A DNA stretch of 14,057 nt, from the UHGV virus genome UHGV-0369625; one strand, written 5' to 3'. How positions within the stretch are numbered: the stretch's first letter is position 1; the number at the start of each line of letters is the position of its first letter. Under the pieces are notes generated by a model that was not told the origin of the DNA, made no database searches, and was given only the letters and a program-made list of their open reading frames with translations. The position numbers were made by a program, and so were the translations under genes. Below are positions 1,317 to 9,265 of the stretch, in pieces. The stretch is from a virus.

Positions 1317-1522
1317 TTCATTTTCACTTTTTTAAATCCAACGACAGACGGCTGGCATTTAAGTATTGTGAAATATTATCAAATGTAATCATCATTGATT
1401 TACAAAAGATACATTTTGCCCCGAAAGGATTCATGTCAGAAACATCAAAAGATGATGTTCTATACTGGGAACCATGACAACACGGGCATCTAAAGTGAAT
1501 ATGGTTTGTAATATTGTCTACC

Positions 1523-1735
1523 TCAAAGCGCCACTACATGAACAGCGGCAGGACCTTTAGGTCCGTTCTCAATACCAAATTCAACTTCCTGATTCTCAGT
1601 TAATGTTTTGAAATCGTTGCTCTGAATTGCTGAGAAATGGACAAACACATCTTTGCTGCCATCTTTCGGCGTGATGAAACCAAAACCTTTTTCAGGGTTA
1701 AACCATTTCACTAAACCAGTCATTTTGTTAGACAT
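1523..1735 (-). CDS. cspI: Cold-shock protein CspI (CspA family), 70 aa
   Basis: Full-length CspA-family [16 protein letters not shown]...; RNP1-like KGFGFI and RNP2-like VFVHF motifs; ATG 1735 preceded by AAGG SD; stop TGA 1523-1525. Confidence 0.95.
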
Positions 1736-1905
1736 AATTATTACCTTTTGAAGAAATTAGCCCTTGGGCAGAATGGTCCGAAAAAAAATATCAGAGAGAA
1801 AAACCAACAAGGAAATCTCAAGAGGTACAAATAATAAAATTATAACAATGACTGCTTCAGATAAATTTGTAACAAACCAGAACACCATTAACGCATGATT
1901 AACCA
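1736..1905 (-). promoter_or_regulatory. Long csp-type 5' UTR with a cold-box-like element at its 5' end (boundaries approximate)
   Basis: About 170 nt non-coding leader upstream of cspI. Plus-strand block caaaccagaacaccattaacgcat (about 1884-1907) is near-identical to a block upstream of cspB (about 4774-4799). CspA-family mRNAs are known to carry long regulatory leaders. Confidence 0.45.
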
Positions 1906-4126: not shown

Positions 4127-4406
4127 GAGATTGTGGTGCTTTTTGTGGGAGTCATCCACTTACGCACTTTGTTTTGCCATGCCAGCAGTTAGCTTCTGCT
4201 GTAAAACTATTCATGCAGCAAACCTGCACTTCACCACAATGGTTAGCATACTTTTCCTGATTAAGGTTTTGCCAAATATGCTGGCCATTGTTTCATGTAT
4301 TGGACCTCCTTATTTTTATTAAAGAGATCCAATATTCACTACTCTGTCCGTATCTCTACTCAGGCATCAGCCTTCTTCGTTATCGTATACAGACGAGCGA
4401 TGAATT

Positions 4407-4622
4407 TTAATCAGTAATGATGACATTTGCTGCTGCAGGACCTTTAGCACCACTCTCTATAGAGAAGGTAACCTTTTGACCTTCAAATAAGGTTCGATAA
4501 TTATCATTCTGAATCGCAGAAAAATGCACAAACACATCTTTACTACCATCAACAGGAGAAATAAAGCCGAAACCTTTATCAGCGTTAAACCATTTTACTA
4601 AACCAGTCATTTTATTTGACAT
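4407..4622 (-). CDS. cspB: Cold-shock protein CspB (CspA family), 71 aa
   Basis: [23 protein letters not shown]...; ATG 4620-4622 with AAGGAA SD; stop TAA 4407-4409. Confidence 0.95.
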
Positions 4623-4800
4623 TCTACATTCCTTAACTTGAGCCTTTCGGCATAAATGGTTTGCATAACAGAAACGACTTCGTACTTAATTGGAGAGACT
4701 CAAAGAAGGAATAAGTGAATAACACCTGAAATGAGAACTGCTTTAGTAAACTACTTCGTATATCGTCTGTTCTTCAAACCGACGCAATCATTAACGCATA
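4623..4800 (-). promoter_or_regulatory. cspB long 5' UTR with cold-box-like element (boundaries approximate)
   Basis: Minus-strand sequence near 4760-4795 (...GGTTTGAAGAACAGACG...) resembles the cspA cold box, and the block is shared with the cspI leader. Confidence 0.45.
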
Positions 4801-4922: not shown

Positions 4923-5135
4923 TTGTCCCGTAAAATGACAGGAATTGTCAAAACCTTTGACGGCAAAAGCGGCAAGGGTCTTATCACCCCATCCGATGGT
5001 CGTATCGATGTCCAGCTTCATGTTTCAGCGCTCAATCTCCGCGATGCAGAAGAAATTACCACCGGATTACGCGTGGAATTTTGCCGGATAAATGGTCTGC
5101 GTGGCCCTTCAGCTGCCAATGTTTACCTTTCATGA
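4923..5135 (+). CDS. cspF: CspA-family cold-shock-like protein CspF, 70 aa, TTG start
   Basis: Frame begins at TTG 4923 with TAAGGAA SD 7 nt upstream; the next ATG (4935) is too far from the SD. Transcribed divergently from cspB. Confidence 0.85.
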
Positions 5136-5556: not shown

Positions 5557-6309
5557 TTATCTCGTCACCTTCCTCAATTGCGCTTCCGCGTATGCTTCTT
5601 CCTGCCAGCACTTTGTTACCAGTTTACCAATGACGTCCGCATACCCCTTATACCACTGATAATCGGTCAGGTCTGGTACCAGCTTCTGGACATGACGTCG
5701 TGCCAGCGTGGTCGGTAAACGACTAAACCGGTTTCCATTACAACGCCCACAAATCTTATATACCGGTACGCCATGAAACCGGGTTCTTTTTTCATCCAGA
5801 ACAATCCCTTTACCCTTACACCCTCTGCACGCTGTGCTGACTTCGCCCTTACCATGGCAATGCTGACATAGTTCCTTCACCCATTCTTCCTTGATTACAG
5901 ATTCCCCGCGTCTGTAGTGTTTCACCACTTCGCGCAATACATTATAAAATCCCGTACCTGAACAATGCTCACAGCGAGCCTTACTTGCCGCAGACCTGGA
6001 GTAATCAGCAAAGGCAAAACTCACGAGGTAAGGAATAATCTGTAACCGGATTTCTTCACTCAATTTGTTCAATGTCGGGTTATCCAGTGCCATCGCGTAA
6101 TTTAGCAGGCCTTCAATCGCAAACTGAGGGTCCTGAACACCAACTTTTGCCAGAAATAAGGCCAACCCAAGTGGTGCTTTCGACTGCACCATCCCCTGCG
6201 CTGCCATTACATCCGTAATTGTTAAACAACCGGTGCCTGTCGCTGGAGCGTCATCGCTCAATTTTGGAGATTTTGGGGAGTAATATTTTGGTAAGGCTTC
6301 AAGGTTCAT
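5557..6309 (-). CDS. quuQ: Late-gene antiterminator Q (phage 82/21-type Q family), 250 aa
   Basis: ATG 6307-6309 with GGAG SD; the track start at 6339 is TTG. Cys/His-rich zinc-binding region (CEHCSGTG...CQHCHGKG...CRGCKGKG...CGRCNG). Matches Qin QuuQ as recalled. Confidence 0.9.
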   Translation of the reverse strand: MNLEALPKYYSPKSPKLSDDAPATGTGCLTITDVMAAQGMVQSKAPLGLALFLAKVGVQDPQFAIEGLLNYAMALDNPTLNKLSEEIRLQIIPYLVSFAFADYSRSAASKARCEHCSGTGFYNVLREVVKHYRRGESVIKEEWVKELCQHCHGKGEVSTACRGCKGKGIVLDEKRTRFHGVPVYKICGRCNGNRFSRLPTTLARRHVQKLVPDLTDYQWYKGYADVIGKLVTKCWQEEAYAEAQLRKVTR

Positions 6310-6322
6310 GCTCGTTCTCCAC

Positions 6323-7372
6323 TTACGCCAGTACGCCAATTGCCAGCGCGCGATCGATAAAACGAAATATCAGCTCCAGTTGGGAGCCATACTTCTCTTC
6401 AAATGCCACTGTATCCGTATGCAGCTCGTTGTGATGCTTTCTGCACAAAGGCAACACAAAGAGATCATGTGCTTTTGTTCCCATTCCGCCCTGCCCGTGA
6501 CCAATCAGATGATGCGGATCGTCGGCTGGCATACCGCAGCAAGCACACGGCTGTGTCTTAACCCAACGTGTGTATTTCTCCTTAACCCAGCGGCGACGTT
6601 TAGGCAGCTTCATGAAAGATTCCGGAGACTCTGGATCAACGGTGATGCTTACCACCGTCTTTTCCTGTGGTGGTTTTTGTTGCTGGTAGGCGTAAGGCAA
6701 CGGTGCAAGATTTTTTGTGCGTTGTTTCAATATGCTGGTGGCGGTCTGCTCTCCCGGTACGATGTCGCTTTCGCGGTACACCGAGCAGATTTTTTCCGCT
6801 GGTAATCCCAGCGAACGACGCGATACAGCCTCAGGTAGTGCATCCACCACCTGATTGCAGACCGCCCACCAGGATAATTCAGCCAAAGATAATTCCCGCT
6901 CCTGCGTACCGCTTATTGCGTGACGGATGACGTCAATCACCCATGCTGTCAGATTTTGTTGAGCAAGCAGATCCAGTGATTCCGATGTCTGGTCACGCAG
7001 TTGGTTGTCGCAGTGCCAACACAACACCATTGCGCCGGTACCATAACGGTGAATGACTGTTTCAGAGTGATGGTAATCGCCATTAGGCCACTGGCAGGAT
7101 GTAACATGACGTAATAGCCAGTCAGACAATGCGCCAACGCCGCCAGCAGCACGAATCACCCGTTCGTTACTAAAAAACGGCAGCAATGTTTTGTCTTCCA
7201 CCAGCGGCTGGCGAACGGCAGGAACGACTCCGGATGGCAGATTACGCATGCTTTTTGGTTCCGGTTCCACCAGCACTCGAGGATTATGAAATATCTGTAT
7301 GGATTCACGGCCCGGCTTAAGGACCACCAGCCCAAGCTCAGGCACCAGAACAGGTCTAAGTAATACCCGCAC
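6323..7372 (-). CDS. ydfU: DUF968-family prophage protein (YdfU-like) with C-terminal HNH-like motif, 349 aa
   Basis: GTG 7370-7372 preceded by GGAGG SD; the track start GTG 7411 has no SD. C-terminus CACCG...DPHHL...HH..ELH resembles a His-Me finger. Confidence 0.75.
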   Translation of the reverse strand: MRVLLRPVLVPELGLVVLKPGRESIQIFHNPRVLVEPEPKSMRNLPSGVVPAVRQPLVEDKTLLPFFSNERVIRAAGGVGALSDWLLRHVTSCQWPNGDYHHSETVIHRYGTGAMVLCWHCDNQLRDQTSESLDLLAQQNLTAWVIDVIRHAISGTQERELSLAELSWWAVCNQVVDALPEAVSRRSLGLPAEKICSVYRESDIVPGEQTATSILKQRTKNLAPLPYAYQQQKPPQEKTVVSITVDPESPESFMKLPKRRRWVKEKYTRWVKTQPCACCGMPADDPHHLIGHGQGGMGTKAHDLFVLPLCRKHHNELHTDTVAFEEKYGSQLELIFRFIDRALAIGVLA

Positions 7373-8085: not shown

Positions 8086-8118
8086 GAAAATAAAAACAAA
8101 AACCCGCCGAAGCGGGTT
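8086..8118 (-). terminator. Rho-independent terminator downstream of hok (stem AACCCGC, loop CGAA, stem GCGGGTT), T-run on the minus strand
   Basis: Plus strand reads aataaaaacaaaaaAACCCGCcgaaGCGGGTTaag; about 70 nt downstream of the hok stop. Confidence 0.7.
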
Positions 8119-8186
8119 AAGTGCGGGTGCGTTGAGGATGCCTGTCACATCAGAGGTGGCGAGGGATTTCTCCCTCGCCGGGTCTC

Positions 8187-8342
8187 TTACTCCTCAGGTT
8201 CGTAAGCTGTGAAGACAGCGACCTCCGTCTGGCCGGTTCGGATTCGTACCTCGCAGAGGTCTTTCCTCGTTACCAGTGCCGTCACAATGACGGTTAAACA
8301 GATGACGATCAGGGCGATTAACATCGCCTTTTGCTGCTTCAT
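8187..8342 (-). CDS. hokD: Hok/Gef-family type I toxin, 51 aa (MKQQKAMLIALIVICLTVIVTALVTRKDLCEVRIRTGQTEVAVFTAYEPEE)
   Basis: ATG 8340-8342 with AGGAGAA SD. Single TM helix plus the conserved Hok C-terminus; matches HokD/RelF as recalled. The track ORF extends 19 codons upstream to ATG 8399. No relB/relE upstream. Confidence 0.85.
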   Translation of the reverse strand: MKQQKAMLIALIVICLTVIVTALVTRKDLCEVRIRTGQTEVAVFTAYEPEE

Positions 8343-8578
8343 AGCCTGCTTCTCCTTGCCTTTCGGCACGTAAGAGGCTAACCTAGATTTGCCGTTCATA
8401 GATTGAGCCTCAGATTAATGTTAAGCGTCTTGCAGGACGCGTAATGTTAACTGGGGCTTTTCTCTATCTGCCTTTGGTGTTCATGCCTGAGACAGATAGC
8501 CTCAAGCACCCGCAGCCATTCTACTTAACTCCCGTTACCTCGCCAATATAAAATCAATCAGAAAGGTGATCCATAAAA

Positions 8579-9265
8579 TCACTCCTTCTCTTCTTTTCCG
8601 TAGTGGAGTTGGCCAATTTTGATAAGAGGGCGTCCCTGAGATTTGCGGTGTAGATTGGTATCGCGCAGAGAATACACACAGCCACAATATTCCTGCTGAT
8701 AGAATTTTTCGCGCTTGCTGATTTCAATCATACGGGACGAGCCGCCCTGCTTGCGCCAGTTATAATCCCAGTACACCATACCCGGATAATGCGCAACAGC
8801 TCGCCGCCCACACTCGTTAACCTGCTGCATATTTTTCCAGCGTGAAATGCCCAGTGAACTGCTGATCACACTGAAACCATTTTCAGCAGCGTACAACGCT
8901 GTCCGCTCAAAACGCATGTCAAAACACATGGTACAACGGATCCCCCTCTCAGGCTCCCATTCCATTCCTTTGGCACGTTCAAACCAGTTGTCTGTGTCGT
9001 AATCAGCATCAATAAATGGCACGCCGTGTTGTTCAGCAAAGCGAATATTTTCATCCTTACGAATTAAATACTCTTTCTGAGGATGAATGTTCGGGTTGTA
9101 GAAAAAGATGGTATAGTCGATTCCCGAGGCCTGAAGCGCCTCCATCACTTCACCGGAACATGGAGCACAGCAAGAGTGCAGTAGTAGTTTGTTTGCCCCG
9201 TTTGGGAGCTCCAATTTAGGCCGTTTGAAATCAGCAATAGTCATAAATATTTTTATTGGGGTCAT
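8579..9265 (-). CDS. QueH-like epoxyqueuosine reductase (DUF208 family), 228 aa
   Basis: Motifs [29 protein letters not shown] and EYCGCVYSL match what I recall as QueH hallmarks. ATG 9263-9265 (no clear SD); alternative ATG 9244. Stop TGA 8579-8581. Confidence 0.75.

What the first reader, a model, noticed from the sequence alone, without database searches (positions are those of the whole stretch)
8086..8578. Solitary hok toxin with 3' hairpin and terminator, no relBE upstream
The Hok peptide matches HokD/RelF as I recall it, but in K-12 Qin hokD is the third gene of relB-relE-hokD. Here the upstream neighbour is the QueH-like gene and a 236-bp leader (8343-8578) replaces relBE. That leader contains an inverted repeat (TTAAGCGTC ttgcag GACGCGTAA, about 8420-8447) and an in-frame upstream ATG at 8399. 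Downstream is a perfect 9-bp hairpin (GGCGAGGGA tttc TCCCTCGCC, 8158-8179) and then a terminator. This layout resembles the fold-back and antisense-controlled architecture of autonomous hok/sok loci. How this copy is kept silent is therefore open: a Sok-like antisense RNA, an overlapping mok-like frame, or neither.
Basis: partly seen in the sequence, partly recalled or inferred. Interest (0 to 1): 0.5.

Follow-up and report, generated by a model that had tools for sequence, protein, structure and literature searches.

The report
Complete hok/mok/sok toxin–antitoxin cassette in prophage
The "solitary" hok toxin gene is an ordinary, complete hok/mok/sok type I toxin–antitoxin cassette with its own promoter, antisense antitoxin RNA and fold-back mRNA, of the kind already annotated in Shiga-toxin phage 933W and common in E. 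coli prophages.

Summary
The open question, how this copy is kept silent, can be answered from the sequence: the locus is a full hok/mok/sok cassette.

- **Leader:** it matches Rfam RF01794 end to end (110 bits, gathering score 59).
- **hok promoter:** a sigma-70-like promoter puts the mRNA 5' end at 8511.
- **tac/fbi:** the first 12 nt (tac) pair with fbi at 8137-8125. This pairing holds in 99.6% of cells across 51 distinct hok loci, with C-G to U-A compensation.
- **Refolding:** removing the 3' end in silico switches the fold to tac/ucb plus mok-SD/dcb, as described for plasmid R1.
- **mok:** the in-frame ATG at 8399 starts a 70-codon mok, laid out like mokC and mokW.
- **Sok:** a Sok gene lies on the plus strand (-35 8356-8361, -10 8379-8384, start about 8391).

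[quoted passage not shown] The full-leader form occurs in at least 2949 of 5426 complete E. coli genomes. The K-12 relBE-hokD form (1166 genomes) is the truncated derivative. This is already known and of low interest.

The parts
8518..8546 (-). hok/mok mRNA promoter: -35 TTGGCG (8546-8541), 17-nt spacer, -10 TAGAAT (8523-8518). It places +1 at G8511.
   Evidence: Consensus scan, 9 of 12 matches. The -10 is nearly invariant in 66 distinct cassettes, and conservation collapses just upstream of the -35. It aligns with the hokC and hokW promoters.
8092..8511 (-). Full-length hok (mok-hok) mRNA, about 420 nt.
   Evidence: The 5' end comes from the promoter and from position 1 of the Rfam RF01794 match. 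The 3' end comes from the intrinsic terminator. MFE -169.1 kcal/mol, z = -7.1.
8500..8511 (-). tac (translational activator) element, GGGUGCUUGAGG, at the mRNA 5' end.
   Evidence: Pairs with fbi in the full-length MFE and with ucb in the 3'-truncated MFE. Invariant in 66 cassettes.
8453..8459 (-). ucb (upstream complementary box, anti-SD), AAGCCCC.
   Evidence: In the full-length fold, mRNA positions 54-61 pair with positions 99-106, which include the mok SD. In the truncated fold, positions 53-59 pair with tac. This matches the first helix of the Rfam model.
8408..8411 (-). mok Shine-Dalgarno, GAGG, 8 nt upstream of the mok ATG.
   Evidence: Read directly from the sequence. Sequestered by ucb in the full-length fold and paired with dcb in the truncated fold. 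Invariant in 66 cassettes.
8187..8399 (-). mok reading frame, 70 codons, in frame with hok and sharing its stop codon.
   Evidence: ORF list. The layout and length match annotated mokC of K-12 (69 aa) and mokW of 933W (70 aa). Alignment.
8374..8379 (-). dcb (downstream complementary box), AGCCUC. It overlaps the Sok -10 on the opposite strand.
   Evidence: Pairs with the mok SD region (mRNA 101-106 with 133-138) in the truncated-mRNA MFE and in the Rfam consensus structure.
8352..8357 (-). hok Shine-Dalgarno, AAGGAG. Its complement carries the Sok -35.
   Evidence: Read from the sequence. CAAGGAG is invariant across 51 hok loci and 66 cassettes.
8187..8342 (-). hok toxin ORF, 51 aa, identical to HokD/RelF.
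   Evidence: Pfam PF01848, E = 1.2e-23. 100% identical to K-12-type HokD and 92% identical to HokW.
8158..8179 (-). 3' stem-loop just after the hok stop codon (GGCGAGGGA gaaa UCCCUCGCC). It would be the terminal hairpin of the processed mRNA.
   Evidence: Present in both MFE folds. An equivalent G+C-rich hairpin sits at the same place in all aligned hok loci. The role is inferred from R1 (PMC9841398).
8125..8137 (-). fbi (fold-back inhibition) element, CCUCAACGCACCC, complementary to tac with one bulged C.
   Evidence: tac-fbi duplex of -21.5 kcal/mol. In 51 distinct loci, 99.6% of cells are paired, with C-G (27 loci) against U-A (24 loci) compensation at position 4, and slid controls reach at most 61%.
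8092..8118 (-). Intrinsic terminator of the hok mRNA (AACCCGC uucg GCGGGUU followed by a U-run).
   Evidence: Terminator scan. Cassette conservation ends at the stem.
8356..8384 (+). Sok promoter: -35 TTGCCT (8356-8361), 17-nt spacer, -10 TAACCT (8379-8384).
   Evidence: Read. The same positions are occupied in K-12 sokC and 933W sokW, located from their annotated RNA starts. The -35 is invariant; the -10 is nearly so, with 8382 varying at a minor-allele fraction of 0.20 and 8379 at 0.08. The hokW paper silenced sokW by mutating its -10 region; primer YO-421 shares the adjacent GCCTCTTACGTGCCGAAAG and replaces the preceding bases. The generic scan did not flag this promoter, because the -10 matches the consensus at only 3 of 6 positions.
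8391..8468 (+). Sok antisense antitoxin RNA, about 71-78 nt. It has a single-stranded 5' tail (8391-8404), a 24-bp terminator hairpin (8405-8459) and a UUUUCUCU tail. It is complementary to ucb, the mok SD, the mok AUG and the first mok codons.
   Evidence: The start is mapped from sokC (starts 9 nt inside mokC), from sokW (starts 9 nt inside mokW, 71 nt long) and from Rfam model position 106. Fold -33.3 kcal/mol, z = -6.4. The 3' end (8461 or 8468) is inferred.
8421..8444 (.). It is the apical extension, about 18 nt, of the Sok terminator hairpin (equivalently, the hok-mRNA hairpin).
   Evidence: It appears as an insertion relative to the Rfam consensus and relative to hokC. It is present in all hokD/hokW-type loci examined.

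Best explanation
The region from about 8546 to 8092 is a self-contained hok/mok/sok type I toxin-antitoxin cassette of the hokD/hokW subgroup. It sits in the nin-like region of a Qin-like lambdoid prophage, between the replication genes and the Q antiterminator.

**Mechanism, inferred by homology to R1 hok/sok and to hokW-sokW:**
1. P_hok makes an mRNA of about 420 nt starting at 8511.
2. The 5' tac box pairs with the 3' fbi box, and ucb covers the mok ribosome-binding site. The full-length mRNA is therefore stable but neither translatable nor bound by Sok.
3. Slow 3' trimming removes fbi. tac then pairs with ucb, and the mok SD moves into a hairpin with dcb.
4. In that state mok, and hok through translational coupling, can be translated, unless the unstable antisense Sok RNA (8391 to about 8465, plus strand) pairs across the mok start region and the duplex is degraded.
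5. Hok is therefore made only when Sok synthesis stops.

**Shown here:** the sequence elements, their positions, the two alternative folds, and tac-fbi covariation.

**Inferred:** transcription, 3' processing, translational coupling, RNase III cleavage, and the biological role. The likely roles are prophage addiction or help with lysis on induction, as reported for hokW-sokW.
For: - **Leader:** full-length Rfam RF01794 match at 8511-8337 on the hok strand, 110 bits against a gathering score of 59, E = 8.7e-25. The same model hits the K-12 hokC/sokC locus on the hok strand, which allows Sok to be mapped.
- **Toxin:** Hok is PF01848 and identical to HokD.
- **mok:** in frame, 70 codons, like annotated mokC and mokW.
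- **Promoter and terminator:** P_hok and the terminator were found by scan.
- **Sok:** the promoter, start and hairpin are co-linear with annotated sokC and sokW.
- **Folds:** the full-length MFE pairs tac with fbi and ucb with the mok SD. The MFE without the 3' end switches to tac/ucb plus mok-SD/dcb. These are the two states described for R1 in PMC9841398.
- **Covariation:** tac-fbi is complementary in 51 distinct loci, 99.6% paired, with compensatory C-G to U-A change.
- **Closest characterised relative:** 92% identical over the whole cassette to 933W hokW-sokW. That system was shown to be a functional type I TA whose Sok promoter mutation unleashes toxicity (PMC8621323).
- **Autonomy:** conservation begins at the -35 of P_hok and ends at the terminator stem. 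Upstream flanks of 80 viral loci fall into 33 unrelated clusters.
Against: - There are no expression data for this window. The RNA ends are inferred from homologues.
- The Sok -10 (TAACCT) matches the consensus at only 3 of 6 positions and was not picked up by the generic promoter scan.
- The Sok 3' tail is an interrupted U-run, so the 3' end is uncertain (8461 or 8468).
- Native chromosomal hokA, hokB and hokC loci reportedly do not mediate post-segregational killing and are not activated by rifampicin (cited in the bioRxiv preprint 10.1101/2025.08.07.668861). Intact elements therefore do not guarantee R1-like behaviour.
- Read-through from the QueH gene and the early-right phage operon into hok is not excluded and could modify regulation.
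Confidence: 0.93

Rival explanations
1. hok is a passenger ORF expressed only by read-through from the QueH gene or the phage early-right operon. On this view there is no antisense partner, and it resembles K-12 hokD riding on the relBE transcript.
For: hok lies in the same orientation as QueH and the early operon (YdaS/YdaT-like, replication genes, Q). The scan found no terminator between QueH and hok. In K-12, hokD does sit behind relBE without its own leader.
Against: The cassette has its own promoter placing +1 exactly at the conserved tac 5' end. It has a complete Sok gene co-linear with annotated sokC and sokW. Its conservation boundaries coincide with its own promoter and terminator, whatever the upstream gene: 33 different upstream contexts, with QueH in only 4 of 80.
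Confidence: 0.03
2. The cassette is structurally intact but is a functionally silent relic. On this view Hok is never released under natural conditions, as proposed for the chromosomal hok loci of K-12.
For: [quoted passage not shown] Most K-12 hok loci are described as inactivated (PMC12214031).
Against: Every regulatory element is intact and under visible constraint. tac, ucb, the SDs and the Sok -35 are invariant and the Sok -10 nearly so, and the hok ORF shows almost no change, across 66 distinct cassettes (the loci were chosen for an identical peptide, so only the absence of synonymous change is informative for the ORF). The 92%-identical hokW-sokW is active: HokW is produced after mitomycin C, and the locus doubles phage release (PMC8621323). 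The cassette is carried by phage genome records such as mEp460, Tritos and HannyBb.
Confidence: 0.12
3. The cassette's main role is defence against other phages by abortive infection, rather than prophage maintenance or help with lysis. This is a rival about biological role only, not about mechanism.
For: R1 hok/sok on a high-copy plasmid reduced T4 plating efficiency by 42% (cited in PMC8621323). Prophages often carry defence systems (preprint discussion).
Against: The preprint found no enrichment of hok near defence systems. The only direct test on a prophage copy found a positive effect on the carrier phage's own release. Nothing in the sequence discriminates between these roles.
Confidence: 0.2

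Closest known systems
hokW-mokW-sokW of Stx2 phage 933W / Sakai prophage Sp5
   Same: 92% nucleotide identity from the promoter -10 region to fbi. HokW is 92% identical. mok is 70 codons and in frame. Sok starts 9 nt inside mok. The Sok -10 and -35 are identical, and the ~18-nt apical extension of the Sok hairpin is the same. Primers and probes in PMC8621323 match the window leader.
   Different: The location in the phage genome differs: near the right end of 933W next to an Ea22-like gene, against the nin-like region here. The terminator downstream of fbi is different. mok codons 2-6, which correspond to the Sok 5' tail, also differ.
hokD (relF) of the E. coli K-12 Qin prophage
   Same: Identical Hok peptide. 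The hok SD, ORF, 3' hairpin, fbi, terminator and downstream rem-ydfU-Q genes are all the same.
   Different: The K-12 copy lacks the hok promoter, tac, ucb, the mok start and sok. Homology begins about 14 nt upstream of the hok ATG, directly after relE, and there is no Rfam sok hit. The window carries the intact form. The relE-hokD junction is found in 1166 of 5426 genomes, against at least 2949 with the full leader.
hokC (gef)/mokC/sokC of E. coli K-12
   Same: Hok is 82% identical. mok is in frame with a 19-codon extension. The leader matches the same Rfam model end to end, and the Sok start is in the same position.
   Different: hokC lacks the ~18-nt hairpin extension, so its leader is 150 nt against 169 nt. 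In K-12, IS186 is annotated about 20 bp downstream of the hokC stop, and homology to the window is lost in the fbi region.
hok/mok/sok of plasmid R1 (the archetype)
   Same: The same set of elements (tac, fbi, ucb, dcb, mok, Sok) and the same two alternative folds, as described in PMC9841398. tac-fbi covaries between the two subgroups: GGGUGC/GCACCC here against GGCGC/GCGCC in R1-like loci.
   Different: Similarity is much lower: HokW, which is 92% identical to the window's Hok, shares 44% identity with R1 Hok. R1 mok is out of frame with hok (from my own recollection of the R1 sequence), whereas it is in frame here. R1 is plasmid-borne with a proven post-segregational killing role.

Membership tests
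[quoted passage not shown] | Small hydrophobic Hok/Gef toxin ORF | tested here: met
   PF01848, E = 1.2e-23, 82.9 bits against a cut-off of 22. 100% identical to HokD.
[quoted passage not shown] | Conserved structured 5' leader of the hok mRNA | tested here: met
   RF01794 model positions 1-157 of 157, 110 bits against a gathering score of 59, E = 8.7e-25, on the hok strand. The same strand and extent are matched at K-12 hokC.
[quoted passage not shown] | Overlapping mok reading frame with its own SD, starting upstream of hok | tested here: met
   ATG at 8399 with GAGG 8 nt upstream, 70 codons, in frame like annotated mokC and mokW. Translational coupling itself cannot be tested with these tools.
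[quoted passage not shown] | cis-encoded antisense Sok RNA with its own promoter and terminator, covering the mok translation start | tested here: met
   Sequence features only: -35 TTGCCT, 17-nt spacer, -10 TAACCT, +1 at about 8391, a 24-bp hairpin and a U-rich tail. These are co-linear with annotated sokC and sokW. The -35 is invariant and the -10 nearly so in 66 cassettes. Expression was not measured.
[quoted passage not shown] | Long-range tac (5' end) / fbi (3' end) pairing that closes the full-length mRNA | tested here: met
   Formed in the MFE of the 420-nt mRNA. Duplex -21.5 kcal/mol. 99.6% paired in 51 loci, with 24 cells changed on both sides, 0 of 500 shuffles reaching the observed value, and slid controls at 29-61%.
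[quoted passage not shown] | Alternative pairings: ucb/mok-SD in the full-length mRNA; tac/ucb and mok-SD/dcb in the 3'-truncated mRNA | tested here: met
   The MFE of 8511-8092 shows ucb paired with the mok SD. The MFE of 8511-8140 shows tac/ucb and SD/dcb. The definitions are taken from PMC9841398. This is in silico only.
[quoted passage not shown] | Slow 3' processing of the hok mRNA, RNase III cleavage of the Sok-hok duplex, and an unstable Sok against a stable hok mRNA | not testable with these tools
   This needs Northern blots or a rifampicin chase. For the 92%-identical hokW-sokW, the antitoxic activity of sokW partly requires RNase III and Hfq, and shorter hokW RNAs were seen (PMC8621323).
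relBE-hokD operon arrangement (K-12 Qin) | hokD directly downstream of relB-relE, without its own leader | tested here: not met
   The upstream gene is QueH, there is no relBE, and a full leader is present.

The most novel reading that the evidence does not exclude
The one non-textbook feature is a hypervariable patch at 8382-8406. It covers mok codons 2-6, which form the loop of the mok-SD/dcb hairpin and correspond to the single-stranded 5' tail of Sok. The patch sits inside an otherwise almost invariant cassette. At least 8 loop alleles occur among cassettes that encode the identical HokD peptide, and the hairpin is preserved in all of them. Two genomes that each carry three copies have three different alleles. 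The patch could be a specificity code that keeps co-resident prophage hok/sok copies from cross-silencing one another. That would be diversifying selection on the Sok recognition site, and it would allow each prophage to be addicted or induced independently.
Probability: 0.3. Interest if true: 0.4.

Novelty: already known. Interest (0 to 1): 0.12.

Why it matters
The main value is for annotation.

RefSeq/PGAP labels these loci only as "hokD toxin", with no mok or sok feature. A reader who compares them with K-12 can therefore mistake a complete toxin-antitoxin cassette for an orphan toxin.

The analysis shows that the K-12 relBE-hokD arrangement is the derived, truncated form. The intact cassette is the commoner state in E. 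coli: at least 2949 of 5426 genomes, against 1166 with the relE-hokD junction.

This adds no new biology beyond what is known for hokW-sokW. The allelic variation at the Sok recognition loop is a modest lead on cross-talk between multiple prophage copies.

Tried and rejected
- **Generic promoter scan for Sok.** The scan found P_hok and the terminator but not the Sok promoter, because its -10 matches the consensus at only 3 of 6 positions. Sok was therefore located by homology to annotated sokC and sokW.
- **Strand of the Rfam "sok" model.** The model matches the hok-sense strand, not the Sok strand. This was checked on K-12 hokC/sokC, so the hit was read as "leader present" and not taken as the Sok coordinates.
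- **hokW in the 933W nin region.** I looked there and it is absent. It lies near the right end of the phage.
- **Literature search for "sokD".** It returned nothing relevant.
- **Read-through-only and decayed-relic readings.** Both were considered and judged unlikely; see the rival explanations.
- **Formal test of ucb/SD/dcb covariation across the 51-locus alignment.** Not attempted, because the alignment of that region is not in register between subfamilies. Only the first 6 tac-fbi pairs were counted.
- **Homology and structure tools.** The search for homologous proteins and structure prediction were not used, because the family assignment was already unambiguous.

Full report
**1. Observation**

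The minus strand of 8086-8578 carries a 51-codon ORF (8342..8187). It is a Hok/Gef toxin (PF01848, E = 1.2e-23) and is 100% identical to K-12 HokD.

The upstream gene is a QueH epoxyqueuosine reductase (9265..8579, E = 1.1e-65), and the gap between them is 236 bp.
- the in-frame ATG at 8399;
- the inverted repeat at 8421-8444, which matches 8 of 9 positions;
- the perfect 9-bp hairpin at 8179-8158;
- the terminator, with stem 8118-8101 and a T-run.

A K-12-type genome confirms the comparison gene order relB-relE-hokD-rem-ydfU-ydfT.

**2. What it is**

*Leader and promoter.* Rfam gives a full-length match (model positions 1-157 of 157, 110 bits against a gathering score of 59, E = 8.7e-25) to family RF01794 "sok" at 8511-8337, on the same strand as hok. 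The model hits the K-12 hokC locus on the hok strand too, while the annotated sokC lies antisense within it. The model therefore describes the hok mRNA leader. A sigma-70-like promoter (TTGGCG, 17-nt spacer, TAGAAT; 8546-8518) places +1 at G8511, which is model position 1.

*Fold-back structure.* The 420-nt RNA from 8511 to the terminator folds with z = -7.1. Its MFE pairs the first 12 nt (GGGUGCUUGAGG, tac) with CCUCAACGCACCC at 8137-8125 (fbi). It also pairs AGCCCCAG (ucb) with CUGAGGCU, which contains the mok Shine-Dalgarno. When the 3' end is removed (8511-8140), the MFE switches: tac now pairs with ucb, and the mok SD pairs with AGCCUC (dcb, 8379-8374). These are the closed full-length state and the open truncated state described for plasmid R1 hok mRNA (PMC9841398).

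*mok.* The ATG at 8399, with GAGG 8 nt upstream, opens a 70-codon frame that runs in frame into hok. Annotated mokC of K-12 (69 aa) and mokW of phage 933W (70 aa) have the same layout.

*Sok.* The plus strand carries TTGCCT (8356-8361), a 17-nt spacer and TAACCT (8379-8384). sokC and sokW both start 9 nt inside their mok frame, which corresponds to 8391 here. That position lies 7 nt after the -10 and is also Rfam model position 106.
- From 8391 the RNA has a 14-nt single-stranded tail, a 24-bp hairpin (8405-8459) and a UUUUCUCU tail. The fold is -33.3 kcal/mol with z = -6.4.
It is an insertion of about 18 nt relative to the Rfam consensus and to hokC, and it is shared by all hokD/hokW-type loci examined.

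**3. Comparative evidence**

*tac-fbi covariation.* From 77 genome loci I extracted 51 distinct full-length hok mRNAs.
- tac and fbi are complementary in all subgroups, and fbi sits about 45-50 nt after the hok stop codon.
- On the alignment, the six tac-fbi pairs that are in register are 99.6% paired.
- Position 4 is C-G in 27 loci and U-A in 24.
- None of 500 shuffles reaches the observed value, and slid controls reach 29-61%.
- The U-A/C-G switch also occurs within the hokB-type subgroup, so it is not a single event.

*Cassette boundaries.* Among 80 IMG/VR loci encoding the identical HokD peptide, 77 have the full leader, 2 are relE-type and 1 is otherwise truncated. In 66 distinct cassettes, conservation begins at the -35 of P_hok and ends at the terminator stem. 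The upstream flanks of the 80 loci fall into 33 unrelated clusters, and QueH is upstream in only 4. The unit is therefore an autonomous mosaic cassette.

*Frequency in E. coli.* Among 5426 complete genomes, at least 2949 carry a copy covering at least 80% of the query, leader included. The relE-hokD junction is found in 1166.

*K-12 form.* Homology with K-12 hokD starts only at the hok SD (about 8356). K-12 keeps the 3' hairpin, the terminator and an fbi box with no tac partner, and it has no Rfam leader hit. That marks the K-12 form as the truncated derivative. This agrees with the statement, citing Pedersen and Gerdes 1999, that the K-12 hok loci other than hokB were inactivated by insertion elements (hokA, hokC, hokE) or by genomic rearrangements (PMC12214031).

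**4. Known relatives**

Sequenced phage records carry the same cassette: mEp460, HannyBb, Tritos, Evi, Rac and Stx phages. It is annotated there as MokW, HokD or "host killer".

Phage 933W annotates hokW, mokW and a 71-nt sokW. The window is 92% identical to that locus from the -10 region to fbi.

Takada et al. 2021 (PMC8621323) studied hokW-sokW of prophage Sp5 and reported that:
- mutating the sokW promoter releases toxicity;
- the antitoxic activity of sokW partly requires RNase III and Hfq;
- sokW disappears and HokW appears after mitomycin C, in a RecA-dependent way;
- deleting the locus halves phage release.

Their primers and probes match the window leader. Enrichment of hok in prophages has also been described in a bioRxiv preprint (10.1101/2025.08.07.668861).

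**5. Mechanism and confidence**

I am confident (0.93) that this is a canonical hok/mok/sok cassette, silenced at two levels: the tac-fbi fold-back of the full-length mRNA, and Sok antisense control of mok translation, to which hok translation is coupled.

The elements, the two alternative folds and the covariation are shown here. Transcription, 3' processing, coupling and RNase III cleavage are inferred from the homologues.

The biological role is not settled by sequence. Help with lysis and phage release, or prophage maintenance, is the best-supported guess, because of the hokW-sokW work. Defence against other phages remains possible. Native chromosomal hokA, hokB and hokC loci were reported not to behave like R1, which is a caution.

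**6. Context**

On the minus strand the window reads as the early-right and late region of a Qin-like lambdoid prophage. In order, the genes are:
- YdaS-like and YdaT-like regulators;
- an HTH replication protein and a DnaC-like ATPase;
- DUF1627, DUF977 and QueH;
- the hok/sok cassette;
- rem, DUF968 (ydfU) and antiterminator Q;
- cold-shock protein (csp) genes;
- holin, lysozyme and Rz.

The hok terminator lies upstream of Q in the same orientation as the early operon. It might therefore also act as a nin-region terminator, but this is inference only.

**7. Verdict**

The cassette is already known and of low interest.

The only lead beyond the textbook is the hypervariable Sok-recognition loop at 8382-8406. 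At least 8 alleles occur among cassettes with an identical toxin, and co-resident copies differ in the two genomes checked.

Noticed in passing
window 8382-8406 (both strands): A hypervariable patch inside an otherwise almost invariant cassette. It covers mok codons 2-6, which form the loop of the mok-SD/dcb hairpin and correspond to the 5' tail of Sok. Minor-allele fraction is 0.2-0.55 there, against about 0 in the flanks. At least 8 alleles occur among 66 cassettes encoding the identical HokD, and the hairpin energy is preserved. Three co-resident copies in each of two genomes carry three different alleles. These may be Sok/hok specificity alleles.
   Followed up: partly
window 8201-8207 (minus strand), Hok Tyr47 codon at 8204-8202: UUACGAA lies around the Tyr47 codon (UAC followed by G), a UACG context that recalls the anticodon loop of tRNA-Arg(ACG) (from memory). 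The TACGAA core is conserved across most hok loci in alignment A5. PMC12214031 reports low-level (6%) A-to-I editing of hokD mRNA, recoding to Cys at the conserved Cys46-equivalent position.
   Followed up: partly
window 4391-4783 (-) and 1496-1881 (-): Two full-length matches to the cspA thermoregulator leader (RF01766, 158.8 and 112.8 bits) precede prophage cold-shock protein genes: a cspB-like ORF at 4622..4407 and a cspI-like ORF at 1735..1523. A third csp ORF lies on the plus strand at 4923-5135.
   Followed up: no
window 8579-9265 (-): An epoxyqueuosine reductase QueH gene (PF02677, 1.1e-65) sits in the nin-like region of the prophage, at the position occupied by relBE in K-12 Qin. It is upstream of the hok cassette in only 4 of 80 viral loci. 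Why a prophage carries a queuosine-pathway enzyme was not examined.
   Followed up: no
window 8092-8118 (-) relative to Q at 5557-6339 (-): The hok mRNA terminator lies in the same orientation as the early-right operon, upstream of rem, ydfU and the Q antiterminator. It could also act as a nin-region terminator that limits Q expression. This is inference only.
   Followed up: no
L015, L024, L030, L035-L037, L051, L069 (genome contigs); phage record PP818812.1: Contigs encoding HokD-type peptides at 96-100% identity over the matched part, or R1-like Hok, are filed under Veillonella, Acinetobacter, Xanthomonas, Streptomyces, Ferruginibacter, Oscillibacter, Dysgonomonas and Vagococcus. An "Actinobacillus phage" record carries a cassette 95.8% identical to the window. 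These are probably contamination, mis-binning or mislabelled hosts.
   Followed up: no
L008 (E. coli ECMA0423, CP178302.1): A hokD-type copy has the mok-SD/dcb region, but the search pattern found no recognisable tac box. It may be a differently truncated or mutated leader.
   Followed up: no
RefSeq records of L002, L003 and the hits: PGAP annotates only a "hokD" CDS at these complete cassettes, with no mok CDS or sok ncRNA. MG1655 (sokC, sokB) and 933W (sokW) do carry those features. This annotation gap invites the "orphan toxin" reading.
   Followed up: yes
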